Under the pieces are notes generated by a model, which had not been told where the DNA came from, searched no databases, and worked only from the letters and a program-made list of their open reading frames with translations. This document shows positions 3,814-37,024 of a stretch of 41,907 bases of DNA, one piece after another. The DNA is from Candidatus Omnitrophica bacterium CG22_combo_CG10-13_8_21_14_all_43_16 (GTDB taxonomy: Bacteria > Omnitrophota > Gorgyraeia > Gorgyraeales > Gorgyraeaceae): NCBI GenBank assembly GCA_002771475.1, contig PCTH01000028.1:1-41907 (forward strand). The letters are read 5' to 3'. Both the position numbers and the translations under genes were made by a program. Every line of letters begins with the position of its first letter. The first letter of the stretch is position 1.

Positions 3814-3833
3814 ATTTTATCTTTACCCTTGAT

Positions 3834-3873
3834 ACACTTACGAAGTGTAATAAATATTGCGCTTCGTAAGTGT
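3834..3873. repeat. Intergenic double palindrome (REP-doublet-like), family B copy 1
   Basis: ACACTTACGAAGTGTAATA-AA-TATTGCGCTTCGTAAGTGT: 19-bp arms with 2 mismatches, each arm itself a mini-hairpin; related copy at 16531-16574. Confidence 0.75.
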
Positions 3874-3886
3874 CTATGGTTTAAAG

Positions 3887-4732
3887 TTATTGTTTAATAG
3901 CGGCGTTTAATGCCTTTCTCATGACCTCTACCACTTGTATCGGAATATTATCTCTTCCTGTCCACTTGCTCAGGGACAACACACCCTGATAAAGCAACAT
4001 ACCTAATCCATTTGAATAACTAGCGCCGGCAGCCTTTGCTAAAGATAATAATTTAGTTTCAGCAGGATTATATATAAGATCGTAAACAAATAAATCTTTA
4101 CGGATCATCTTTTTATCAATCAAGCAGGGGTCGCTTTCCTTCAACCCGATTGGCGTAGCGTTAATAAGCGCGTCTTTGGAAAGGATATTTAATTCTTCTA
4201 CGCTATTTGCGATTTTAACCGGCAGATTACTGAATAGTTCTTTCAGCATACTGGCAACGCCTGACGCTTTATCTTTATCTATATCAAAGATGCATATTTC
4301 CTGCGCACCTTTATTCGCCAGCTCATAACTAACTGCCCTGCTAGCACCTCCAGCTCCTAATATCGCGATCTTTTTGCCTCTGGGATCAAAGCCCAATACT
4401 TTTAAGTGCCTTGAAAACCCGTTTATATCAGTATTAAAACCTTTCCATGCTTTGCCCTGTCTGACTAAAGTATTGACTGCTTTTATCTGACGCAAATAAA
4501 AAGATTCTTGATCCAGCTGTATAAAATCCAGCACCTTTTCCTTGTGAGGAATCGTGACGTTTAATCCTTTTATACAAGAGTCTATGTCAGCGAAGAAATC
4601 CCCTAACCCTTCCGGCTTTATCTCAAAAGTTCGGTATTCCGCGTCGATGCCGAGCGCCTTAAAGGCGGCATTGTGCATCGCGGGCGATAAACTATGTTTT
4701 ATAGGCCAGCCGATTACACCGTATATATTCAT
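3887..4732 (-). CDS. aroE: Shikimate dehydrogenase
   Basis: HSLSPAMHN, GLNVTIPHK, AVNT, NTD, GAGGAS, NATPIG, DLIYNP, GMLLYQG. Confidence 0.96.
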   Translation of the reverse strand: MNIYGVIGWPIKHSLSPAMHNAAFKALGIDAEYRTFEIKPEGLGDFFADIDSCIKGLNVTIPHKEKVLDFIQLDQESFYLRQIKAVNTLVRQGKAWKGFNTDINGFSRHLKVLGFDPRGKKIAILGAGGASRAVSYELANKGAQEICIFDIDKDKASGVASMLKELFSNLPVKIANSVEELNILSKDALINATPIGLKESDPCLIDKKMIRKDLFVYDLIYNPAETKLLSLAKAAGASYSNGLGMLLYQGVLSLSKWTGRDNIPIQVVEVMRKALNAAIKQ

Positions 4733-15889: not shown

Positions 15890-16889
15890 AAATGCCTTTT
15901 TCGGTTATTATGCCTGAGATCAGGCTGTGAGGAGTAACGTCAAACGCAGGATTATAAACCTTTGCGCGGATCGGCGCAATCTGCCTTGAACCCGCGTAAA
16001 TAATCTCTTCCGCCTTTCTTTCTTCAATAGGGATATCCTCGCCTGTTTTTATAAATTTATCTATAGTAGAACTTGGGGCTGCTACATAAAAAGGAATACC
16101 GTGGTGCCTTGCAAGCACAGCGAGCCCGTATGTGCCTATCTTATTGGCGGCGTCTCCGTTAGCGGCAATCCTGTCCGAGCCGACGATGATCTTCGTAACA
16201 CCTTTATTTTTTATGACGCTCGCCGCCATATTATCGCATATAAGAGTGGCGTCAATATTATTCCGCATCAGTTCCCACATAGTAAGACGCGACCCCTGCA
16301 TAAGCGGCCTTGTCTCATCAGCATAGACCTTGAAACGTTTACCCTGTTTTTTAGCTTCGTAGATTATTGAAAGGGCTGTGCCTTGTCCGGCTGTAGCCAG
16401 TATCCCGGCATTGCAATGCGTCAATATCACGTCTCCATTTTTTATCAGTTTCGCACCGTTTTTTCCGATTGCAATGCACATATTTTTGTCTTCTTCCAGG
16501 ATTTTCAATGCCTCTTTTAAAACAAACCTCTTACACTTCGTAAGTGTACAATTTTTTACGCTTACGAAGCGTAATAAGGCGCGCTCCATTCTATCAAGTG
16601 CCCAGAATAGGTTTACCGCAGTAGGCCTGGTGACCCTGAGTTTCTGAGAGGCTTTGGCCAGATCTTTTTTAAGGCCTGCCCATGAATTTTGTTTTGAATT
16701 AACAGCGGCCAACGCGTATCCCAGGGCAACAGCCACGCCTATCAAAGGAGCGCCTCTTATCCTGAGCTTCTTTATTGCCTCGCATAATATATCTACATCC
16801 TTGCAAGCTACATACTTTAGCTTCGCGGGCAGTTCTGTCTGGTCAATAAAAACTATTTTTCCGTCTTTCCACTTGATAGGTTCTATCAT
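15861..16889 (-). CDS. mtnA: S-methyl-5-thioribose-1-phosphate isomerase
   Basis: DQTELP, IRGAPLIG, RPTAVNL, THCNAG, ETRPLMQG, DRIAANGDAANKIGTY, NPAFDVTP. Confidence 0.95.
   Translation of the reverse strand: MIEPIKWKDGKIVFIDQTELPAKLKYVACKDVDILCEAIKKLRIRGAPLIGVAVALGYALAAVNSKQNSWAGLKKDLAKASQKLRVTRPTAVNLFWALDRMERALLRFVSVKNCTLTKCKRFVLKEALKILEEDKNMCIAIGKNGAKLIKNGDVILTHCNAGILATAGQGTALSIIYEAKKQGKRFKVYADETRPLMQGSRLTMWELMRNNIDATLICDNMAASVIKNKGVTKIIVGSDRIAANGDAANKIGTYGLAVLARHHGIPFYVAAPSSTIDKFIKTGEDIPIEERKAEEIIYAGSRQIAPIRAKVYNPAFDVTPHSLISGIITEKGIYEIKRFRGI
16531..16574. repeat. Double palindrome inside the mtnA coding sequence, family B copy 2
   Basis: TTACACTTCGTAAGTGTA-CAATTTTT-TACGCTTACGAAGCGTAA; the same units as 3834-3873. 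Confidence 0.75.
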
Positions 16890-17989
16890 AAACCAAACCC
16901 CTTTGCTAAAAAATTACGTTTTAATTCTACTGCCTTATGAGGACAAACCTCGTGGCAGCACATGCACTTGATACATTTTTTTAAATCTATAACCGACTTT
17001 CCGGGATTTATCGTTATAGCTGAAACAGGACAGCTGTCCCTGCATATCATGCATTTTTTGCAAAATTTTTCTTTTATGCGCGGCCCGAATTTTATAAACC
17101 CGGCCACAAATTTAGCAAAAGGCCCTAGGGCAGTTATTAACCCCGGTTTTCCCGGGATCTCAAAACCTTTTATCAAATTATCTTTTATGTTTTCCCCTGA
17201 TACTTCAATATTTTCCAGGCCTGCTTCTCCGAGCCTTCTTCCATACGCTTCCTTTGTAGTCAAGATGCCTAACGGTTCCACGCCTATTAGTCCGGCAAAA
17301 ACAGAGTCTACTGCCACGCTGTCAGTCCCGGCTATTAAAAGACCTGTATCTTTCAGCCTTCCTGAAGCAGGCCCTCCCTGATCCATGCTGACTATAGCGT
17401 CCATTAAAACCAGGCTGGGCTTTGCTATCTCAAATGTATCCACTAAAACCTTTGCGAATTCTTCAGGGCTTGGATATTTTTTATGAAGTTCGCTTTTATG
17501 AAGCCCTGCAACAGCGCCGTACATATTTTTAACCGCCCCTGTAAGGCCCATCAAGCTGTGGGTTTTCATTTTAGGAATATTTATAATCTTATCGCATTCA
17601 AAAATATATGCCGCTATCGGAATATTATTAACTACTTTTATGCCTTTCGCCTCTTTTAACTCTATGCCTTCTTCCTTTGCCAAAGCGCTCAGGCCTGCGC
17701 CTTCGTATACCGCCATGGAACTTATTGAGCCGCCGGGATTGTCGCCTATAAAAACTGTCGCGCCGCAGTCTCTGGCTAATCTAACAACAGCCCTTATCAC
17801 CTCCGGGTGTGTACATACCCCGTCTTCAGGCAGACGGGCTGAAAGCATATTAGGCTTAATAAGTACACGTTCACCTTTTTTTATAAAAGCGCTTATCCCT
17901 CCCAGAAGATCAAAAGCCTTTTTTACAGCCTGCTCAACTTCTGTCCTTTTGTAATTTTCACATTTTACAATCGCAACTCTGGTTTTCAT
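16886..17989 (-). CDS. DUF362-family protein with C-terminal 2x[4Fe-4S] ferredoxin domain
   Basis: VLIKPN, THPEV, GDNPG, INIPKMKTH, TGAVKNMYG, GTDSVAVD; two CxxCxxCxxxCP motifs at the C-terminus. Confidence 0.85.
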   Translation of the reverse strand: MKTRVAIVKCENYKRTEVEQAVKKAFDLLGGISAFIKKGERVLIKPNMLSARLPEDGVCTHPEVIRAVVRLARDCGATVFIGDNPGGSISSMAVYEGAGLSALAKEEGIELKEAKGIKVVNNIPIAAYIFECDKIINIPKMKTHSLMGLTGAVKNMYGAVAGLHKSELHKKYPSPEEFAKVLVDTFEIAKPSLVLMDAIVSMDQGGPASGRLKDTGLLIAGTDSVAVDSVFAGLIGVEPLGILTTKEAYGRRLGEAGLENIEVSGENIKDNLIKGFEIPGKPGLITALGPFAKFVAGFIKFGPRIKEKFCKKCMICRDSCPVSAITINPGKSVIDLKKCIKCMCCHEVCPHKAVELKRNFLAKGFGL

Positions 17990-18039
17990 TCTATTCTCTA
18001 TGTAATACTTTCAATGTCAGATAACACTAATTGCTCTTT

Positions 18040-18281
18040 GCCAGCCCTGGCAGGTTTTGAGAAAAGCCTCGCCGATTTGAGCGGGCACGGTGCCCCGCCT
18101 CCGGGCTGGGGCCATTCGGCGCTGAAATAACTTCGCCGTAATTCCTTGCGGACTTTTGCCGAAATTTTTCTAATGCGCCTCAAACCCCAGCCCGGAGGCG
18201 GGGCAAGCGAAAATCGGCGCGGAGCGAAGGACGTCTCGCTGGGACGTCCGAGCGTCTTTTCGAAAGCCTGCCAGGGCTGGC
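18040..18281. repeat. Nested palindromic element (MITE/REP-like or structured RNA), family A copy 1
   Basis: 15-bp perfect terminal IR (18040-18054 / 18267-18281), 21-bp perfect inner IR (18091-18111 / 18185-18205) and further stems; core homologous to 25193-25374. Confidence 0.85.
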
Positions 18282-18322
18282 TACTATGCAAAGCGTTACC
18301 TAACTATTCAAATAATACACTT

Positions 18323-19348
18323 TTAGCCCCGGATGAGCTCCTTTATAAAAAATACAAAACCCACAATAATTGAATTGTGAATTATATGCACGGCCATGGG
18401 CGCTACAAGAGACCCTGTTGTCTCATATAAAAACGCCATCAGGATGCCCAATATTATAATCGGCGCAAAGCCCGTTACGTTTGTATGCAGCATGCTGAAT
18501 AAAGCTGCGCTTAGCAGCACTCCGGACAGCACTCCAAACCGTTTTCTTACAGCGCTGTATAAAAATCCCCTGAAAAATATTTCCTCTATTATAGGCCCCA
18601 GGATTGCAACAAATACTGTTAAAAATAAAACCACATTGCTTCTTTTTTCTTCTAAAAACATATCAAATACAGGCTGAGCAGGAAATTTATATCCTATCGC
18701 GTTTAGAAACAGCATCGATAAGATAAGGACTGCTATTAAAATAGGCAATATAAACACATAAGCGGTAATCCCGGATAAAACATTTCTATAAAAACCCGCG
18801 GATGCGATGCCCAGGCTGGACAATTTCTCCCTGTATTTTACCATGACAAAATAAAATATCGTTATCCCGGCAATCACATCTATAGAAAATGTGCCCAGTA
18901 TCATGCCCAGATTAGGGTCAATATTAAAATGAAGCGGCTTTGAAACAATGCTTGTTAACGCCCCCAGCATATAGCCTGAGAAAACCGCTATAATAGCCGC
19001 CTTTAACACGTCCGCTATGCCCCATGGTACGGATATTTTATCCGGAACTTTTTCCGGGATTATCTTTTTCCTGCCAAAAAGAAAAAAAAGATTCATCGCC
19101 ATGCCTGCCAGGAGCATAAAAATCCCTGTAAATATTCCATATTTGAAAAGAACTGCGGCAGGCTTTTCCGATTCAAAGAATAACTTTATCTTTTCTTCCG
19201 TGACGCCCATATCCTGGAATGTCATGGAAGAAACGCTTTTTTTATCAGCCGTTTTTTTTCGGCTATATCCTATATTAAGCAGATTAATGCCTAATATAAA
19301 AATCAGCATCCAGATATACATGCGTTCTCTTTTGATAAATTCTAACAT
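18323..19348 (-). CDS. CPBP (CAAX/Abi) family intramembrane glutamic endopeptidase
   Basis: Multiple TM helices; PIIEEIFFRG, FSMLH, HIIHN motifs. Confidence 0.9.
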   Translation of the reverse strand: MLEFIKRERMYIWMLIFILGINLLNIGYSRKKTADKKSVSSMTFQDMGVTEEKIKLFFESEKPAAVLFKYGIFTGIFMLLAGMAMNLFFLFGRKKIIPEKVPDKISVPWGIADVLKAAIIAVFSGYMLGALTSIVSKPLHFNIDPNLGMILGTFSIDVIAGITIFYFVMVKYREKLSSLGIASAGFYRNVLSGITAYVFILPILIAVLILSMLFLNAIGYKFPAQPVFDMFLEEKRSNVVLFLTVFVAILGPIIEEIFFRGFLYSAVRKRFGVLSGVLLSAALFSMLHTNVTGFAPIIILGILMAFLYETTGSLVAPMAVHIIHNSIIVGFVFFIKELIRG

Positions 19349-23604: not shown

Positions 23605-24569
23605 TGCCTTTCTAGCTCAAGCGCCATATTGAAAAGCGCCATCTTTGGATTTATGTTTCTTCTTATGTAATTTATAGTTTTCATTACGCTGGCTATGTCC
23701 CTTTCTATTTTTTCTGCAGAAAACCTGGCAGAATAAGAAAAGATCTCCTCTATCCTGTCCAGATTCAGAAAAATATTCCTGTCCTGGGTGAATTTTGAAA
23801 CAAGTAGATCCCTGTACCAGGATAAAAGCATGCCGAGCGACGCGTCCAGGTCGTTATATTTTTTATCGTCGCATACCTCTTCCCTGAATATGGCCCTCTT
23901 CCTTAAAAAAAAGTCGTTCAGCATCCTGTCGCGCTCCCTGATATAATCGTTTTCTTTGAAGGCTATTGCCCTGCCCGGGCTGCCCATGGCCATGCGCGAA
24001 AATAAAACCGCTTCCTCTTCATTGAAACCCTGTCTGCTCGTAAGAATTTCCTGAACCTTGTCCCGGCTCAAAAGATTGAACTTCACGATCTTGCATCTGG
24101 AAAATACCGTAGCGAGTATCCCGGAAACAACCGAGGTGGTCAATATGAATATCTGGTTTTCCCTGGGCTCTTCCAGGATTTTCAAAAGCGCGTTCTGCGA
24201 TTCTTCGTTCATATCCTCTGCCTCGGCTATTATAAAAATCTTTTTCCTGGCTTCATACGGCTTCAGGCTCGCCTGATAAATAATATCCCTTATTCTGTCT
24301 ATCTTAATGAAACTGGATCCTTCTTCTTTCCGGATAATAAATAAATCCGGATGATTTAAGGAATTTATTTTCCTGCACGAAACGCATTCTTCGCACGCAT
24401 CCTCTTTTTTTTCGCAATTAATGGCCTTGGCAAATTCTATGCCGGCAGAAAACTTTCCCACGCCGCCGGGCCCGGTAAAGATATAGGCGCCGTTTATATC
24501 TTCCTTGGCAATCATACTACTAAGCGCCCTTACGGCGCTATCCTGTCCTATAATACCCTTTAGCGGCAT
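23601..24569 (-). CDS. holB: DNA polymerase III subunit delta'
   Basis: GPGGVGK, C-x-CxxCxxC zinc site, HPDL, QNALLKILEEP, TVFSRC; follows tmk. Confidence 0.93.
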   Translation of the reverse strand: MPLKGIIGQDSAVRALSSMIAKEDINGAYIFTGPGGVGKFSAGIEFAKAINCEKKEDACEECVSCRKINSLNHPDLFIIRKEEGSSFIKIDRIRDIIYQASLKPYEARKKIFIIAEAEDMNEESQNALLKILEEPRENQIFILTTSVVSGILATVFSRCKIVKFNLLSRDKVQEILTSRQGFNEEEAVLFSRMAMGSPGRAIAFKENDYIRERDRMLNDFFLRKRAIFREEVCDDKKYNDLDASLGMLLSWYRDLLVSKFTQDRNIFLNLDRIEEIFSYSARFSAEKIERDIASVMKTINYIRRNINPKMALFNMALELERQ

Positions 24570-25177
24570 ATTTTTAGAACTCTCTTTCTGATTTCTTCCT
24601 GGGCCAGGGTTATTTCGCCCCCGGAAGATACCACCCTGACTCTTTTAGGTTCTTTTTTTGCGATAGAAAGGTATCCGTTCCTTACCTTATTATGATAAAG
24701 AATGGATTTTCTTTCCATCCTGTCTTTGGACCTGCCTGTCCTTAAAAGCCCGGCCCTGGCGTCTATATCCAGCAAAAACGTAATATCAGGCTTCAGGCCT
24801 TTTGTAACGATGCCGGCTATATTTTCTATGACCTTCAAATCCATGCCTCCGGCATATCCCTGATAAGCAAGGGTGGCGTCGGTAAATCTGTCGCACACCA
24901 CTATCTTTCCCTGCGTAAGAGCGGGCAGGATTTTCTGCTTTACTATCTGGGCCCTGGCTGCCATGTATAAAAGCATCTCGCAAGAAACATCCATGCCTTT
25001 ATTTTTAGGATCCAGGAGGATCTTGCGTATTTTCTCGCTGATCAATGTGCCGCCTGGCTCGCGCGTATGTAAAACCTTATAGCCCTTCTTCCGCAAAAAT
25101 CCGCGCAGCAATCTGGAATGTGTGGTCTTACCGCTTCCTTCAGGGCCTTCAAATGTTATGAATATTCCATGTTTCAT
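24560..25177 (-). CDS. tmk: Thymidylate kinase
   Basis: FEGPEGSGKT, TREPGGT, CDRF, AYQG, PDITFLLD. Confidence 0.96.
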   Translation of the reverse strand: MKHGIFITFEGPEGSGKTTHSRLLRGFLRKKGYKVLHTREPGGTLISEKIRKILLDPKNKGMDVSCEMLLYMAARAQIVKQKILPALTQGKIVVCDRFTDATLAYQGYAGGMDLKVIENIAGIVTKGLKPDITFLLDIDARAGLLRTGRSKDRMERKSILYHNKVRNGYLSIAKKEPKRVRVVSSGGEITLAQEEIRKRVLKICR

Positions 25178-25192
25178 AGTTAATTTCTGTTT

Positions 25193-25374
25193 GGCAGGCT
25201 GGGACCGTTCGGCGCAGAGAGTGTTTCGCCGCGCGCTACGGTTTACGGCTCGTTTTTTATACTGAAGGTAGTCTTGACAGTATAAAAAACTTCGCCGTAA
25301 TCCCTTGCGCGCTTATATTCTAAAAAATCTATTATGCCGAAACCTCTCAAATGCGCCTCAGGTCCCAGCCTGCC
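25193..25374. repeat. Rod-like palindromic element, family A copy 2 (more complete core)
   Basis: 14-bp perfect terminal IR (25193-25206 / 25361-25374), 13-bp perfect inner IR (25252-25264 / 25278-25290), intermediate stems GCGCGC/GCGCGC and TTACGG/CCGTAA. Confidence 0.85.
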
Positions 25375-25392
25375 CAACCGCTATATAACTCT

Positions 25393-26847
25393 CTATATTT
25401 TCTTTTCCCAGACTGTTGTTCCGTCTTTTTTATCTTTTGGAACTAATCCTTTTTTTTCTAGCGCTTTTCTAACCTCATCAGCTGTCTTGAAATCTTTACT
25501 TTTCCTAGCTTCCTCTCGCCTTTTAACTAGTATTTTAATACTATCTGTTAAAGTACCATTATCCGTGTCTTTTACGCCAATATTCTGAATAACATCCACA
25601 TTCAGTAAAGACCCATCTAAAAATTCTTTTGATAAGCCTAAAGTCTTCCCCAAATCAATTAAACTTTCTTTCGCATACTCTAGATTTTCTCCACTTTCTA
25701 TACTTTTATTAATAAAAGATACCATTTCAAAAATAATACCTAGCGCTTGAGCTGTATTAAAATCATCGTCCATAACTTCTTCAAATTTAGAGCGATATTC
25801 GTCGACCAATTTATTGATATTTTTATTAGGCCTAGATTTTGTTTTTATATTTTTCAACTCATTCATTGATGTGCAAATACGCTTATACGCCTCTTTTGCT
25901 CCGTCCATCCTCTCCCACGAAAAATCCACGGGATGGGAATAGTGCGTCTGCAAAAATAATATTTTCAACGCGTCCGCCGGGTATTTGGCCAATATATCCT
26001 CTATGGTGATAAAATTACCGAGGCTCTTTGCCATCTTTTCTTTATTGATGGTCAAAAGGCCGTTGTGCATCCAGCAGCGCGCGAATTTATTGCCCGCGCC
26101 TTCTGACTGCGCAATCTCGTTCTCATGATGAGGAAATATAAGATCTATGCCTCCTCCGTGTATATCAAATTCGCCTCCCAATATATCAGAGCTCATAACA
26201 GAGCATTCTATATGCCATCCTGGCCTGCCGTTTCCCCACGGGCTTTGCCATGAAGACTCGCCCTCTTTTGCGGATTTCCATAAAGCGAAATCCAGAGGGT
26301 CTTTTTTATTCTCCCCCGGGGCTATCCTGGCGCCCGATTCCAGCATCTCAAAACTCTGGTTGGATAATTTCCCGTAACCATTAGCCTTACGCACATCAAA
26401 ATACACATCACCGCCTGACGCGTAAGCCACTTTGCGCTCAATCAGTATTTTTATAAAATCTATCATCTTTCCTATGTACTCTGTTGCCTTCGGCTCTTTA
26501 TCGGGAGGCATAATCCCCAGCCTCTCCATGTATTCGTGGTAAACTTTAAGGTATTTGTCCGAAACCTTTTTCACGGCGATGGTTAAATCCTCACCCTTAA
26601 ATTCTTCTTTTGCCTTATTGATTATTTTGTCGTCTACGTCCGTAACATTTCTGGCAAATTTTACTTCATAACCTTTGTACCTAAAATAACGCCGTACTAC
26701 GTCAAACGCATAAGCGCTTCTCGCGTGCCCTATATGCGGGACATCGTAAACAGTGGGCCCGCAGACATACATGCTGATACACCCTTCCTTGATCGGCTTG
26801 AATTCTTCTTTTTTTCTTGTAAGCGTATTGTATATTTTCATGCTCAT
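25393..26847 (-). CDS. cysS: Cysteine--tRNA ligase
   Basis: YVCGPTVY, HIGH, NVTDVDDKI, DFALWK, GRPGWHIECS, DIHGGG, FPHHENE, KMAKS, DDDFNT; start ATG 26847 (ATGA overlap) or 26841. Confidence 0.97.
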   Translation of the reverse strand: MSMKIYNTLTRKKEEFKPIKEGCISMYVCGPTVYDVPHIGHARSAYAFDVVRRYFRYKGYEVKFARNVTDVDDKIINKAKEEFKGEDLTIAVKKVSDKYLKVYHEYMERLGIMPPDKEPKATEYIGKMIDFIKILIERKVAYASGGDVYFDVRKANGYGKLSNQSFEMLESGARIAPGENKKDPLDFALWKSAKEGESSWQSPWGNGRPGWHIECSVMSSDILGGEFDIHGGGIDLIFPHHENEIAQSEGAGNKFARCWMHNGLLTINKEKMAKSLGNFITIEDILAKYPADALKILFLQTHYSHPVDFSWERMDGAKEAYKRICTSMNELKNIKTKSRPNKNINKLVDEYRSKFEEVMDDDFNTAQALGIIFEMVSFINKSIESGENLEYAKESLIDLGKTLGLSKEFLDGSLLNVDVIQNIGVKDTDNGTLTDSIKILVKRREEARKSKDFKTADEVRKALEKKGLVPKDKKDGTTVWEKKI

Positions 26848-27311
26848 ACCAGGCATACGACTGCGTACGCTGCAAGCGCCTCGCCTCTTCCTATTGCGCC
26901 GATACCTTCCTGGGTCGTGGCTTTCACGTTCACGCTATCAATGGTTATGCCCAGTGCTGCCGCTATCTCCCTTTTCATATTATCTTTAAAAGGAGCTATC
27001 TTAGGCTCTTCCAGTATAATCACTGAATCCACATATTCCACCCTGAAGCCTTTTTTCTTTATCTTCGCTGAAACCTCTTTTAAAAGTTCTGAGCTTGATA
27101 TATTCAAATACCTGTCATCATTCACTGGAAATTGATGGCCTATATCGTCCAGGCCTGCGGCTCCTAAAATAGCATCGCATATGGCGTGAAGAAGCGCGTC
27201 TCCGTCAGAATTGCCCAGCAGGCCTTTTATATACGGGATCTCAATGCCTCCCAGCATAAGCGGCCTCGCGTCCACGAACCTATGAATATCATAACCAATG
27301 CCAACTCTCAT
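26844..27311 (-). CDS. ispF: 2-C-methyl-D-erythritol 2,4-cyclodiphosphate synthase
   Basis: GIGYDIH, SDGDALLHA, DIGHQFP, NVKATT; follows ispD. Confidence 0.95.
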   Translation of the reverse strand: MRVGIGYDIHRFVDARPLMLGGIEIPYIKGLLGNSDGDALLHAICDAILGAAGLDDIGHQFPVNDDRYLNISSSELLKEVSAKIKKKGFRVEYVDSVIILEEPKIAPFKDNMKREIAAALGITIDSVNVKATTQEGIGAIGRGEALAAYAVVCLV

Positions 27312-34553: not shown

Positions 34554-37024
34554 TTAAACACAAGTTTCCCGTTTTCCGCAACCACATTCACAGGTTTGTC
34601 TTTTACAAGGCGTTTTGAAATAATCTCTTCGGCTAATGGGTCTTCCAGAAATCTCTGTATGGTGCGTTTCAAAGGCCTTGCCCCGAAAATAGGGTCAAAG
34701 CCCTGTTCTATCAGAAGATCTTTGGCTGACTGGTCAAGGTTTATATCCACAGACTGCTCTTTTAACCTGGCCTTCACCTCTTCCATTTCTATTTCTATAA
34801 TTTTGTAAAGGTCATCCTTTGTAAGCGGATGGAATACTATGGTGTCATCGATCCTGTTTAAAAATTCCGGCTTGAAGGTTTTCTTGACCTGCTCCAGAAG
34901 CCTTTCCTTCGTATCATTGTAAGTAACTTCTTTGGCTTCTGATTTAAAACCAAGCGAACCCTGTTTCCTGAATATATCCGCCCCCACATTCGACGTCATG
35001 ATAAGTATGGTATTTCTGAAATCCACTTTTCTGCCGAAGCTGTCTGTCAGGCGCCCGTCTTCCAAAACCTGAAGCAGTATATTAAATACATCAGGATGCG
35101 CCTTTTCTATCTCGTCCAAAAGCACCACTGAATAAGGCCTGCGCCTTACTTTTTCCGTAAGCTGTCCGCCTTCTTCATAGCCCACGTACCCGGGAGGAGC
35201 GCCTACAAGCCTTGACACGTTAAATTTTTCCATGTATTCAGACATATCCAGTTGTATAAGGGCATTCTCATCGCCGAACATAAATTCCGCAAGCACTTTT
35301 CCCAGATGGGTCTTGCCTACGCCCGTAGGCCCGAGGAATATAAAAGAGCCTATAGGCCTCTTCGGATTCTTTATGCCTGCGCGCGAACGCCTGACTGCGT
35401 GGGCAATAGCGGTTATGGCCTCGTCCTGTCCTATGATCCTATTGTGCAGCTCCTCTTCCATCTTCATAAGCCTCTCAGACTCTTTTTCTTCAAGCCTGAA
35501 GATAGGTATGCCTGTCCATTTTGAAACTATATTGGCAATCATCTCCTCGTCAACCCTGGGCCGCGCCTCCATCCTGGCTTTTTTCCATTCTTCGCGCGTC
35601 TTGTCCAGCTTTGTACGAGCTTTTTTCTCTTCGTCCCTGAGATTGGCGGCCTTTTCAAAATCCTGGTTTTTTATCGCAGAATCTTTTTCTTTATGGATAT
35701 TCTCTATGTCGCTCTCCATGTCTTTTATTTCTTTTGGGGCAGTCATTATGGAAAGTCTGGCCTTTGCGCCTGCTTCGTCTATGAGGTCTATCGCCTTGTC
35801 AGGCAAAAATCTTCCCGCTATATATCTGTCTGAAAATTTCGCAGCAGCCTCCACGGCGGAATCCGTAATCTCAACCCTGTGATGAGCCTCATATCTATCC
35901 CTGAGGCCTTTTAATATTCCGATTGTCTCATCCACGCTGGGCGGGTCTACCATGATTGTCTGAAAACGCCTTTCGAGCGCAGCGTCTTTTTCTATATGCT
36001 TTCTGTATTCATCAAGGGTTGTGGCGCCTATGCATTGTATCTCGCCTCTTGAAAGAGCCGGTTTCAATATATTAGAGGCGTCTATGGCGCCTTCTGCGCC
36101 GCCTGCGCCTACCAGCGTATGCAATTCATCAATAAAAATCATCACGTTTTCAGACCTTTTTATCTCATCCATAACAGCTTTTATTCTCTCTTCAAACTGG
36201 CCCCTGTATTTCGTGCCTGCCACCATGAGCGCCAGGTCAAGGATTATCACCTTTTTATCTTTTAATATCTCAGGCACATCGCCTTTTACTATCTTCTGCG
36301 CAAGGCCCTCCACTATCGCTGTCTTGCCTACCCCTGCCTCGCCTAAAAGAACAGGATTATTTTTTGTGCGCCTTGAAAGTATCTGGATAACCCTCTCTAT
36401 CTCGTTCTCCCTGCCTATGACAGGATCTAATTTATTGTCGCGCGCAAGCTGGGTCAGGTTTCTGCCAAATGCGTCAAGCGCAGGAGTTTTAGAGCCGGAT
36501 CTCTGCTGTCCCGGAGCGTGCCCGGCTGCGCCTTGTCCAGGGCCAGAGCCCTGGCCTTGCTGAGGAGCGTTGAAACCGGGCTGTATATTGGATCCTAAAA
36601 GTTCCGCTATCTCTTCCCTGACCTTATTCAGGTCGAGCCCGAGATTTATCAATACCTGGGACGCAACGCCTTCGCCTTCTCTTATAAGGCCCAGTAAAAT
36701 ATGTTCTGTGCCTATATAATTATGACCCAGAGACCTTGCCTCTTCGCTGGAAAGCTCTATGACTTTTTTAGCCGTGGGCGTAAACGGTATATCGCCGGAA
36801 ACAACCATAGGCGGTCCGGGTTTTACAATCTTTTCTATTTCCATGCGTATCTGCTGCAGGTTCAACCCCATTTTCTGGAGAACTACCGCAGCCACGCCCT
36901 CGCCTTCTCTTATAAGCCCGAGCAATATATGCTCGGTACCTATATAATCGTGGTTAAACCTTTTTGCCTCTTCTTTTGCAAGCAATATTACTTTCCTGGC
37001 ACGTTCCGTAAACCTGTTGAACAT
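34550..37024 (-). CDS. clpC: ATP-dependent Clp protease ATPase ClpC
   Basis: Double Clp-N repeats (HDYIGTEHILLGL), two AAA+ modules (GEAGVGKT, GPTGVGKT), UVR middle domain, LGF loop; follows mcsA-mcsB. Confidence 0.96.
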   Translation of the reverse strand: MFNRFTERARKVILLAKEEAKRFNHDYIGTEHILLGLIREGEGVAAVVLQKMGLNLQQIRMEIEKIVKPGPPMVVSGDIPFTPTAKKVIELSSEEARSLGHNYIGTEHILLGLIREGEGVASQVLINLGLDLNKVREEIAELLGSNIQPGFNAPQQGQGSGPGQGAAGHAPGQQRSGSKTPALDAFGRNLTQLARDNKLDPVIGRENEIERVIQILSRRTKNNPVLLGEAGVGKTAIVEGLAQKIVKGDVPEILKDKKVIILDLALMVAGTKYRGQFEERIKAVMDEIKRSENVMIFIDELHTLVGAGGAEGAIDASNILKPALSRGEIQCIGATTLDEYRKHIEKDAALERRFQTIMVDPPSVDETIGILKGLRDRYEAHHRVEITDSAVEAAAKFSDRYIAGRFLPDKAIDLIDEAGAKARLSIMTAPKEIKDMESDIENIHKEKDSAIKNQDFEKAANLRDEEKKARTKLDKTREEWKKARMEARPRVDEEMIANIVSKWTGIPIFRLEEKESERLMKMEEELHNRIIGQDEAITAIAHAVRRSRAGIKNPKRPIGSFIFLGPTGVGKTHLGKVLAEFMFGDENALIQLDMSEYMEKFNVSRLVGAPPGYVGYEEGGQLTEKVRRRPYSVVLLDEIEKAHPDVFNILLQVLEDGRLTDSFGRKVDFRNTILIMTSNVGADIFRKQGSLGFKSEAKEVTYNDTKERLLEQVKKTFKPEFLNRIDDTIVFHPLTKDDLYKIIEIEMEEVKARLKEQSVDINLDQSAKDLLIEQGFDPIFGARPLKRTIQRFLEDPLAEEIISKRLVKDKPVNVVAENGKLVFK

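What the first reader, a model, noticed from the sequence alone, without database searches (positions are those of the whole stretch)
25193..25374. 182-nt rod-like element; the 18 kb core is its internally deleted homolog
Seen: 25288-25309 matches 18129-18150 at 21/22 nt and 25332-25360 matches 18154-18182 at 24/29 nt, while the 18 kb copy lacks the left inner arm (about 25217-25287). On the - strand the stacked stems are separated by non-canonical-looking loops: two tandem G.A loops and a GUA/AAG loop-E-like loop. Inference: either a structured ncRNA/leader upstream of tmk or the fuller form of a miniature mobile element. The size is 6S-RNA-like, but I cannot recognise 6S consensus sequence.
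Basis: partly seen in the sequence, partly recalled or inferred. Interest (0 to 1): 0.75.

Follow-up and report, generated by a model that had tools for sequence, protein, structure and literature searches.

The report
Omnitrophota interspersed palindromic repeat element
The 182-base hairpin between cysS and tmk is one copy of a many-copy, modular palindromic repeat that sits between housekeeping genes in Omnitrophota bacteria, much like the ERIC, Correia or REP repeats of better-studied bacteria, and it is not a 6S-like RNA or a tmk leader.

Summary
The two matches are exactly 21/22 and 24/29. The 25 kb element folds as a rod on either strand, with z about -11.

It is not a known RNA: Rfam gave 0 hits. 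It is one copy of a dispersed repeat family. A 20-mer seed found 51 loci in species-representative genomes. A covariance model confirmed 43 of them, in 11 assemblies, 10 labelled Omnitrophota.

- Every copy is intergenic, and the flanking genes are housekeeping genes.
- Orientation relative to transcription is unbiased, 23 sense to 20 antisense.
- Ten copies are cut by contig ends.
- Of 62 stem pairs, 27 covary, with no G.U over A.C excess.

The 18 kb copy is the apex-deleted form. The same junction recurs in another genome. In the window it sits inside a 319-nt nested composite of further conserved palindromic modules.

Several intergenic sites are occupied in different species, including cysS|tmk, yet sequences group by genome and never by site.

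Best reading: a new ERIC/Correia/BIME-like repeat family, co-transcribed as a long hairpin. How it moves and what it does were not shown.

The parts
25178..25392 (.). cysS-tmk intergenic spacer. It is palindromic almost end to end (25178-25390).
   Evidence: ORFs; Pfam hits for Thymidylate_kin and tRNA-synt_1e; self reverse-complement alignment.
25193..25374 (+). Full-length core repeat copy (subfamily with the AT-rich bulge). Polarity is defined by the strand carrying the 20-mer seed; here that is antisense to the flanking genes.
   Evidence: Covariance model hit at 25185-25394, 233.7 bits on +, against 38.8 bits for the palindromic echo on -; folds.
25193..25206 (+). Outer stem, left arm. 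It pairs with 25361-25374. This part varies between copies but stays complementary.
   Evidence: Helix 1: 17 of 17 pairs show changes on both sides, and 88.8% of cells are paired.
25361..25374 (+). Outer stem, right arm.
25231..25252 (+). Left mid-stem with conserved internal loops. It pairs with 25290-25312.
   Evidence: Nearly invariant columns in the 30-copy alignment; also kept in the diverged copies L018, L019 and L051:1699-1887.
25253..25289 (+). Apex hairpin: an AT-rich 12-bp stem with a 13-nt loop (25265-25277). In diverged copies it is replaced by unrelated apex modules, and in the short form it is deleted.
25290..25309 (+). Right mid-stem 20-mer, used as the search seed. It is identical at 19 of 20 positions to 18131-18150.
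   Evidence: Its invariance among the fetched loci follows from how they were found.
25313..25335 (+). 23-nt AT-rich one-sided bulge. It is present in one subfamily and absent in the other.
18001..18319 (+). Composite long-form element that fills the spacer between the Rce1-like and DUF362 genes. It is a set of nested palindromic modules around a short-form core.
   Evidence: Self reverse-complement alignment; fold of -151.4 kcal/mol, z -9.7; alignment with long forms from other species.
18105..18191 (+). Short-form core, with the apex and inner left arm deleted. The junction lies next to the 8-nt word TTCGCCGT, which occurs in both arms of full copies.
   Evidence: Covariance model hit at 18092-18216, 86.6 bits; alignments; the same junction in L040.
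18091..18111 (+). Variable stem, left arm. It is 21/21 complementary to 18185-18205.
   Evidence: pair I10.
18185..18205 (+). Variable stem, right arm.
   Evidence: pair I10.
18055..18090 (+). Left arm of a second conserved module, called 'X' here.
   Evidence: Conserved in many loci. X also occurs without a core.
18206..18266 (+). Right arm of module X, with its own small side hairpin.
18040..18054 (+). 15-nt outer clamp, left. It pairs with 18267-18281.
18267..18281 (+). 15-nt outer clamp, right.
18001..18039 (+). Outermost AT-rich module, left. Its right counterpart is 18282-18319. It is conserved in the long forms of other species.
18282..18319 (+). Outermost AT-rich module, right.

Best explanation
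The 182-nt rod is one copy of a non-coding, interspersed palindromic repeat family carried by a clade of Omnitrophota. It has no coding capacity of its own. It is built of nested modules: a variable but self-complementary outer stem, a sequence-conserved mid-stem with fixed internal loops, and an exchangeable apex hairpin. It is optionally enclosed in further palindromic shells (module X, a 15-nt clamp and an AT-rich outer module).

Shown here:
- The family, its copy number and its intergenic location.
- Its modular and nested build.
- The recurrence of the short form.
- Covariation of the arms.
- The absence of strand or orientation bias.
- Occupation of the same intergenic sites in different species, with sequences that group by genome.

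Inferred:
- Copies are spread and kept alike by DNA-level processes. These would be mobilisation by an enzyme encoded elsewhere and/or gene conversion between copies.
- Recombination between the two arms flips the inner part.
- Slippage at a short direct repeat produced the apex-less form.
- Because copies lie inside same-strand gene runs without promoter or terminator signals, they are co-transcribed. In the mRNA they would fold into a long interrupted hairpin that can be cut or bound by double-strand-specific factors such as RNase III. That would uncouple the stability or expression of the flanking genes (here cysS from tmk), as described for Correia and ERIC repeats.
For: Family and spread:
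- The 20-mer seed gave 51 loci.
- The covariance model R1 hits 43 of the 51 on the seed strand and 0 of the other 8, which are chance matches in coding DNA of other phyla.
- The 43 loci lie in 11 assemblies: 16, 12, 6 and 2 loci in four assemblies, and 1 locus in each of seven others.
- R1 found 2 further copies that lack the seed.
- 10 of 45 seed-bearing copies (43 loci plus the window's 2) are cut by a contig end, as expected of a repeat that breaks assemblies.

Location:
- Every copy is intergenic.
- None of the 110 flanking ORFs scanned hit a transposase or integrase family; the named hits are overwhelmingly metabolic, translation, repair and envelope families.

Orientation among the 45 seed-bearing copies:
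- Flanked on both sides: 14 sense, 12 antisense.
- Flanked on one side: 9 sense, 8 antisense.
- 2 divergent, 0 convergent.

Structure:
- 62 consensus pairs, 27 with changes on both sides, 96.0% of cells paired.
- Shuffled columns give 87.0%, and 0 of 500 shuffles reach the observed value.
- Slid registers give 35-47%.

No RNA-strand signal. Sporadic G.T cells number 29 and A.C cells 22. This excludes 42 G.T cells in two fixed columns.

Modularity:
- Long forms of 414-522 nt with the same outer modules occur in several species.
- Module X occurs without a core in L009, L026, L040 and L050.
- Three other apex modules sit on the same mid-stem in L018, L019 and L051:1699-1887.
- The apex-less form with the same junction occurs in the window and in L040.

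Dynamics:
- The same sites are occupied in different species. They are cysS|tmk, uvrA|TPR, purH|Mur-ligase, ABC|NTP-transferase, upstream of atpH, downstream of a methyltransferase-GT2 pair, and upstream of DUF362.
- At two of these seven sites the orientation is flipped.
- The nearest relative of each of 30 cores is in the same genome for 16 of them, and at the same site for none.

No sigma-70-like promoter or intrinsic terminator lies in 25193-25374. An RNase III gene is present in one carrier genome (L032). The abstract of PMC2649163, seen in the listing, says that Correia elements bind RNase III and are cleaved or protected by it.
Against: - No transposase partner, target-site duplication or empty site for this family was seen, so mobility itself is unproven. 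I looked at the ends of the two window copies and found no flanking direct repeat.
- Conservation runs the wrong way for a classical transposon. The ends vary and the interior is conserved.
- Where the same site is occupied in two species, the element is 80-92% identical while third codon positions of the flanking genes are 52-81% identical. One site, upstream of DUF362, is shared with a genome whose DUF362 protein is only 44% identical. This points to constraint or function and not to neutral junk.
- Transcription, RNA folding in vivo and RNase III action are all untested.
- All loci were found through one exact 20-mer. Copy numbers are therefore lower bounds, and the conservation of that stretch follows from how the loci were found.
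Confidence: 0.65

Rival explanations
1. A host-kept functional DNA site. The hairpin or cruciform, or its conserved mid-stem, would be the binding or cleavage site of a dedicated protein, for example a domesticated hairpin-specific HUH/Y1-type enzyme, a nucleoid protein or a single-strand initiation factor. The repeat would then serve chromosome biology and not RNA.
For: - The interior is conserved while the ends vary.
- The element folds equally well on both strands and as DNA.
- There is no G.U over A.C excess.
- There is no orientation bias relative to transcription.
- The same sites are kept across species, including one shared at 44% protein identity of the neighbouring gene.
- The arms change in step, including matched length changes between the window copy and L046 at the same site. 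This is easier to explain by arm-to-arm templating in DNA than by independent mutations.
Against: - No candidate protein was identified, and there is nothing in the 2-kb flanks.
- A site read on one DNA strand would be expected to keep one orientation relative to replication. In genomes whose genes run mostly with replication this would appear as an orientation bias, and none is seen.
- The seed biases the apparent conservation.
Confidence: 0.15
2. A multi-copy structured non-coding RNA, either a trans-acting sRNA or a protein-sequestering rod such as a 6S analogue, expressed from the element itself.
For: - Rod shape and a size of about 180 nt.
- Strong covariation.
- Invariant purine-rich internal loops on one strand.
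- Conservation above that of synonymous sites.
Against: - No Rfam family matches, 6S models included.
- There is no promoter-like or terminator-like site in or beside the 25 kb copy.
- There are at least 17 copies in one assembly.
- The element is nested inside other repeats.
- The apex is exchangeable or deletable.
- Wobble pairs are no commoner than A.C mismatches (29 against 22).
- The model's polarity shows no link to the direction of neighbouring genes.
Confidence: 0.1
3. A gene-specific cis element: a leader or attenuator of tmk, or the terminator of cysS.
For: - It fills the cysS-tmk spacer and ends 15 nt before the tmk start codon.
- A copy sits at the same place in a related genome, L046.
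Against: - The same family lies beside dozens of unrelated genes.
- The L046 copy belongs to a different subfamily, and its nearest relatives are other copies in its own genome.
- No U-tract follows the hairpin on either strand, and the terminator scan found none there.
- There is no T-box, riboswitch or leader hit in Rfam.
Confidence: 0.03

Closest known systems
ERIC / IRU (RU-1, 127 bp) and related enterobacterial intergenic repeat units (RU-2, RU-3)
   Same: Both are imperfect palindromes of about 100-170 bp, present in many intergenic regions and described as small MITE-like mobile sequences (abstract of PMC2759123, seen in the listing). From memory, not from a call: ERIC copies occur in either orientation in transcribed spacers and have longer and shorter variants made by internal insertions and deletions. 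That matches the bulge-plus, bulge-minus and apex-less forms here.
   Different: There is no sequence relationship that I could test, because no ERIC model was in the libraries searched. The host phylum differs. This element is longer (182 nt, and up to 522 nt with its shells), has exchangeable apex modules, and is nested inside other palindromic modules.
Correia repeat enclosed elements (CREE) of Neisseria
   Same: Both have inverted repeats around a conserved core, are intergenic and co-transcribed, and form a hairpin in RNA. CREE hairpins can bind RNase III and be cleaved or protected, so the element controls the neighbouring genes (abstract of PMC2649163, seen in the listing). This is the working model adopted here.
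   Different: CREE are said to create promoters at their ends and to bind IHF. No promoter-like site was found in the 25 kb copy, and IHF binding was not tested. From memory, CREE have defined terminal repeats and a TA target duplication. Here the ends vary and no duplication was seen.
REP sequences and their mosaic clusters (BIMEs)
   Same: Both are extragenic palindromes. Both combine with other conserved motifs into mosaics that occupy intergenic spacers, in both orientations. Both show species-level homogenisation of copies at shared sites. The REP description comes from the abstract of PMC3184786, seen in the listing. The BIME and homogenisation points are recalled.
   Different: REP units are small G+C-rich stem-loops. 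From memory they are 20-40 nt long, carry a conserved 5' tetranucleotide and are tied to RAYT genes. This unit is five to ten times longer and has an AT-rich apex, and no RAYT link could be tested.
Bacterial MITEs
   Same: Both are small, non-coding, multi-copy and intergenic, and both have inverted ends.
   Different: The defining target-site duplication and a parent insertion sequence with the same ends were not found. The termini are the least conserved part, not the most conserved.
6S RNA
   Same: Both are rods of about 180 nt with internal loops.
   Different: There is no match to any Rfam 6S model. The element is multi-copy, has no promoter of its own, and points either way.

Membership tests
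6S RNA | Match to a 6S covariance model | tested here: not met
   Rfam 15 gave 0 hits at gathering thresholds over the window. No 6S hit appeared at E up to 10 over 24900-25700.
6S RNA | Single or few-copy gene with its own promoter and terminator | tested here: not met
   At least 17 copies in one assembly. No promoter-like or terminator-like site in the element.
MITE | Small, non-coding, multi-copy, with inverted ends | tested here: met
MITE | Direct target-site duplication flanking each copy | tested here: not met
   No flanking direct repeat was seen at either window copy or in the flanks printed. The ends grade into copy-specific palindromic sequence, so the boundary itself is uncertain.
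MITE | A parent insertion sequence with the same ends, or a transposase | not testable with these tools
   No transposase family appeared among 110 ORFs within 2 kb of the copies.
REP / BIME | Extragenic palindromes combined with other conserved motifs into mosaics | tested here: met
REP / BIME | Unit of about 20-40 nt with a conserved 5' tetranucleotide (recalled definition) | tested here: not met
   The unit is 182 nt and its ends vary.
REP / BIME | Association with a RAYT (Y1 transposase) gene | not testable with these tools
   Only 2-kb flanks were held, and none contained one.
ERIC / Correia-type transcribed hairpin repeats | Imperfect palindrome of about 100-200 nt in transcribed spacers, in either orientation | tested here: met
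   26 of the 28 copies with genes on both sides lie between same-strand genes, 14 sense and 12 antisense. Transcription itself was not measured.
ERIC / Correia-type transcribed hairpin repeats | Sequence homology to the ERIC or Correia consensus | not tested
   No model or reference sequence of either was available in the tools used. The host phylum differs.
ERIC / Correia-type transcribed hairpin repeats | RNA hairpin processed or bound by RNase III or RNase E | not testable with these tools
   This needs an experiment. An RNase III gene exists in one carrier genome (L032).
Intrinsic terminator | G+C-rich stem followed by a U-tract | tested here: not met
   No such site lies in 25178-25392 or 17990-18322.
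T-box / riboswitch leader | Match to a curated cis-regulatory RNA family | tested here: not met

The most novel reading that the evidence does not exclude
The element is not junk. It would be a phylum-specific structured nucleic-acid module that the host keeps. Its heart would be a conserved mid-stem with fixed purine-rich internal loops, read by a dedicated but still unknown protein as RNA or as extruded single-stranded DNA. The outer stem would be free to take any self-complementary sequence, and the apex would be an exchangeable plug-in.

Its retention in the same operon spacers across species would then mark a new kind of operon-internal control or processing signal in Omnitrophota. Examples are cysS|tmk, uvrA|TPR, upstream of atpH, and upstream of DUF362 even at 44% protein identity. 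The nesting of cores into the apical loop of module X would reflect a loop-targeting insertion mechanism that has not been described.
Probability: 0.15. Interest if true: 0.75.

Novelty: new member of a known kind. Interest (0 to 1): 0.45.

Why it matters
Omnitrophota are uncultivated bacteria known almost only from metagenome bins, and I found no description of their repeats. Searches of open-access papers and bioRxiv preprints returned nothing relevant.

A repeat family of this kind has practical consequences:
- It breaks assemblies. Ten of 45 copies sit at contig ends.
- It can yield false ORF calls, such as the 97-codon frame at 17998-18291.
- It can be mistaken for an ncRNA.

It also has biological interest:
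- It gives a lineage marker.
- It places likely mRNA-processing sites inside housekeeping operons.
- It combines variable self-complementary ends, a conserved interior, swappable apexes and nesting. That makes it a good case for asking how long palindromes are copied, flipped and kept symmetrical in bacterial chromosomes.

Tried and rejected
- Rfam at gathering thresholds on the whole window, at E up to 10 on 24900-25700, and at E up to 0.1 on five related loci. Only noise came back: mir-183 at 19 bits, a flavivirus CRE and a human lncRNA piece. 6S, T-box and riboswitch readings were dropped.
- Promoter and terminator scans. Nothing was found in the 25 kb element. The 3 promoter-like sites reported in 17800-18500 are weak (9 of 12 matches each): one runs from the edge of the 18 kb composite's outer module to within a few bases of the DUF362 start codon, which is too close to serve it; the other two lie outside the composite.
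- blastn (distant mode) of 25178-25392 against plasmid and phage collections gave no match.
- G.U against A.C counting, to pick the functional RNA strand, gave no signal.
- Target-site duplications were sought by eye at the copy ends and none was found.
- Transposase or integrase genes were sought within 2 kb of the copies and none was found.
- My first orientation count used the nearest unfiltered ORFs, some of which were spurious antisense frames. I replaced it with the filtered count.
- I first listed an M48-peptidase site (L004, L040) and a glycosyltransferase-1 site (L008, L041) as shared between species. On reading the gene orders the positions differ, so I dropped them.
- Rows left out of the 30-copy alignment A2, from the 35 complete copies: L018 and L019 (diverged), L040 and the window 18 kb copy (short form), and L047 (extra insertion). 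They are included in the model-fitted alignment A3.
- Not checked: the metagenome and viral contig collections, which were closed; whole genomes of the carriers; and any expression data.

Full report
**The observation.** The window is a stretch of bacterial chromosome of about 44% G+C. Essentially all of its genes lie on the - strand, and they are ordinary housekeeping genes. The element at 25193-25374 lies in the 215-nt spacer between cysS (25393-26856, -) and tmk (24560-25177, -). The second copy lies in the 333-nt spacer between an Rce1-like gene (18323-19348, -) and a DUF362/ferredoxin gene (16886-17989, -).

The left ends also match. The 25 kb element folds into one interrupted hairpin on either strand:
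- RNA, - strand: -105.9 kcal/mol.
- RNA, + strand: -99.8 kcal/mol. Both RNA folds have z = -11.4, and 0 of 200 shuffles did as well.
- DNA parameters: -58.4 kcal/mol, z = -10.3.

**It is not a known RNA.** Rfam 15 gave nothing at gathering thresholds over the whole window. It gave only noise at E up to 10 around the element, and nothing at E up to 0.1 in five related loci. There is no sigma-70-like promoter or intrinsic terminator in or beside the 25 kb copy. The plasmid and phage collections hold nothing similar.

**It is a dispersed repeat family.** I spent the single genome scan on the best-conserved 20-mer (25290-25309, 13th base free). It returned 51 loci. I built a covariance model from 30 full copies (A2, R1).
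- R1 hits 43 of the 51 loci on the seed strand, at 61-244 bits.
- R1 hits none of the other 8. These are coding DNA of Fibrobacter, Bradyrhizobium, Lachnoclostridium, Christensenellaceae, Thermomicrobiales and Spirochaetota, about the number of chance matches I had estimated beforehand (a rough hand calculation, not a tool result).
- The 43 loci come from 11 assemblies. Ten are labelled Omnitrophota or Omnitrophica. One 2.3-kb contig is labelled Firestonebacteria.
- The loci are distributed as 16, 12, 6 and 2 in four assemblies and one in each of seven others.
- R1 found two further copies that lack the seed: L007:206-416 and L051:1699-1887.
- Ten of 45 seed-bearing copies are cut by a contig end, as expected of a repeat that breaks assemblies.
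- The window's own genome is not among the loci. Its closest relative there is the assembly of L046, with tmk 93% identical in protein.

These counts are lower bounds, because only copies with the exact 20-mer were fetched. For the same reason, the invariance of that 20-mer follows from how the loci were found.

**Context and orientation.** Every copy is intergenic. No transposase or integrase family was hit among 110 ORFs within 2 kb of the copies, and the named hits are mostly tRNA synthetases, ribosomal proteins, ATP synthase, repair and envelope genes. With filtered ORFs, the 45 seed-bearing copies divide as follows:
- Between two same-strand genes: 14 sense, 12 antisense.
- With a gene on one side only: 9 sense, 8 antisense.
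- Between divergent genes: 2. Between convergent genes: 0.

The element does have a polarity. The model scores 180-244 bits on one strand and only 27-60 bits on the other. That polarity is unrelated to the direction of transcription.

**Anatomy.** The consensus has 62 base pairs in six helices.
- The outer helix of 17 pairs differs from copy to copy, yet 88.8% of its cells are paired, and all 17 pairs show changes on both sides.
- The inner helices are conserved, with a few clean compensatory switches. The internal loops and the apex loop are nearly invariant.
- Overall, 96.0% of cells are paired. Shuffled columns give 87.0%, with 0 of 500 shuffles reaching the observed value. Slid registers give 35-47%.

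Covariation in a long DNA palindrome does not by itself show an RNA. Arm-to-arm templating in DNA gives the same picture. The one test that separates the strands gave no signal. Outside two fixed columns there are 29 G.T and 22 A.C mismatches, alongside 1706 Watson-Crick cells and 52 other mismatches.

Two subfamilies exist and share genomes. One has the 23-nt AT-rich bulge (25313-25335 in the window copy). The other lacks it.

**The 18 kb copy.** Its core (about 18105-18191) lacks the part that corresponds to 25224-25289 and most of the bulge. The junction lies next to the 8-nt word TTCGCCGT, which occurs in both arms of full copies. A slip or recombination between these direct repeats explains the deletion. 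This is an inference. The same junction occurs in L040, in another genome and at another site. The short form is therefore propagated.

Around this core, the window carries further nested palindromic layers:
- A 21/21 complementary variable stem (18091-18111 with 18185-18205).
- The two arms of a second conserved module, which I call X (18055-18090 and 18206-18266).
- A 15-nt clamp (18040-18054 and 18267-18281).
- An AT-rich outer module (18001-18039 and 18282-18319).

The whole 319-nt spacer is thus palindromic. The same layered long form, 414-522 nt with a full core, recurs in several species. Module X also exists without a core. It then has its own short, copy-specific apical hairpin, and in several loci it sits next to a separate core (L009, L026, L040, L050). 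Diverged copies keep the mid-stem but carry three other, unrelated apex modules (L018, L019, L051:1699-1887). The family is a mosaic of nested palindromic modules.

**Evolutionary behaviour.** Seven intergenic sites are occupied in more than one species:
- cysS|tmk: window and L046.
- uvrA|TPR protein: L020, L026, L051.
- purH|Mur-ligase-like: L028, L033.
- Oligopeptide ABC|NTP-transferase: L022/L010, L024.
- Upstream of atpH: L047, L050.
- Downstream of a methyltransferase-GT2 pair: L021, L042.
- Upstream of DUF362: window 18 kb copy and L018, where the DUF362 proteins are only 44% identical.

At two of the seven sites the core is flipped between species (L026, and L021 against L042).

The host genes at shared sites are 70-93% identical in protein and 52-81% identical at third codon positions. 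The elements at those sites are 80-92% identical. Yet no core's nearest relative is the copy at the same site in another species. For 16 of 30 cores the nearest relative is a copy elsewhere in the same genome. For the rest it is a copy in another genome, at up to 96% identity.

Old, persistent sites combined with sequences that are homogenised or replaced are what is reported for REP/BIME-type repeats (recalled). The pattern fits gene conversion, repeated re-insertion, or strong constraint. The data cannot separate these three.

One related case shows gain or loss directly. L046 has an extra spacer between ispF and cysS that holds a palindromic element of another family, roughly 165 nt by my reading of the printed sequences, at the point where those genes overlap in the window (26841-26856).

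**Most likely mechanism.** I read the element as a non-autonomous interspersed palindromic repeat of the ERIC/Correia/BIME kind, new for Omnitrophota.

Shown: the family, its modular build, its location, the covariation, the lack of strand and orientation bias, the shared sites, and the clustering by genome.

Inferred:
- DNA-level spread and homogenisation by an enzyme encoded elsewhere and/or by gene conversion.
- Flipping of the inner part by recombination between the arms.
- Origin of the short form by slippage at a direct repeat.
- Co-transcription, because copies lie inside same-strand gene runs without promoter or terminator signals. The long hairpin in the mRNA could then be cleaved or protected by double-strand-specific factors, as the abstract of PMC2649163 (seen in the listing) states for Correia elements and RNase III.

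For the window this would mean that cysS and tmk, and the Rce1-like and DUF362 genes, are separated by a processing or stability signal. No step of this RNA-level effect was tested.

**Rivals.**
- A host-kept DNA site read by a dedicated protein. The conserved interior, the variable ends, the equal behaviour of both strands and the matched changes in both arms support it. No protein is known.
- A multi-copy ncRNA. Rod shape, covariation and fixed purine-rich loops support it. The copy number, the nesting, the swappable apex, the absence of promoter and terminator, and the missing wobble signal count against it.
- A tmk-specific leader or a cysS terminator is contradicted by the family's distribution.

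**Comparison with known systems and novelty.** In behaviour the element resembles four known kinds: enterobacterial intergenic repeat units (abstract of PMC2759123), Correia elements (abstract of PMC2649163), REP and MITE repeats (abstract of PMC3184786), and, from memory, BIME mosaics. It is not a member of any of them by sequence or by their defining ends.
- No target duplication was found.
- No parent insertion sequence was found.
- There is no short REP unit.

I found no paper on such repeats in Omnitrophota in four full-text searches. For the papers cited I saw only titles and the starts of abstracts in the search listings.

I file it as a new member of a known kind. Its unusual traits are variable self-complementary ends around a conserved interior, plug-in apexes, nesting, and site retention down to 44% identity of the neighbouring protein. 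These leave room for a more interesting, host-kept function.

Noticed in passing
L046:3422-3661 against window 26841-26856: A close relative of the window genome has an extra spacer between ispF and cysS holding a palindromic element of a different family, roughly 165 nt by eye. In the window these genes overlap. This is a clean occupied-versus-empty pair for another repeat family of these genomes.
   Followed up: partly
L009:120-265, L026:1700-1870, L040:1730-1900, L050:1700-1870: Module X, the shell around the window's 18 kb core, also occurs alone. It then has a short, copy-specific apical hairpin, and in several loci it sits just beside a separate core copy. It looks like a repeat family in its own right.
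   Followed up: partly
window 17998-18291 (-): A 97-codon open frame lies wholly inside the palindromic composite and has no Pfam hit. It is most likely a false ORF created by the repeat.
   Followed up: partly
window 3818-3889 and 16531-16548: The spacer at 3814-3886 holds a 35-nt-arm palindrome. Its 18-nt centre recurs as a perfect complement inside the IF-2B-family gene at 16531-16548 (pairs I1 and I25). This may be another small palindromic repeat, or chance.
   Followed up: no
L003 and L011, right flanks of the core (about 90-330 nt after the seed): Both loci, from the same assembly, share a further long G+C-rich palindromic module to the right of the core that is absent from other copies. 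It is more evidence that these spacers are mosaics of several repeat families.
   Followed up: no
L009 (contig JAZDIO010000205.1, 2288 nt): The only copy outside Omnitrophota-labelled assemblies lies on a very short contig of a bin labelled Firestonebacteria. This could be a binning error or a transfer.
   Followed up: no
window 1-41907: Nearly every long ORF is on the - strand, and GC skew is negative in every 1-kb window. The only sizeable + strand frame in a gap is 1410-2000, which has no Pfam hit at E<=1e-12.
   Followed up: no
window 36663-36720 and 36891-36948: A 58-nt direct repeat at 84% identity lies inside the Clp ATPase gene (family D3). It falls in the region of the two Clp_N repeats, so it is most likely the protein's own internal repeat.
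   Followed up: no
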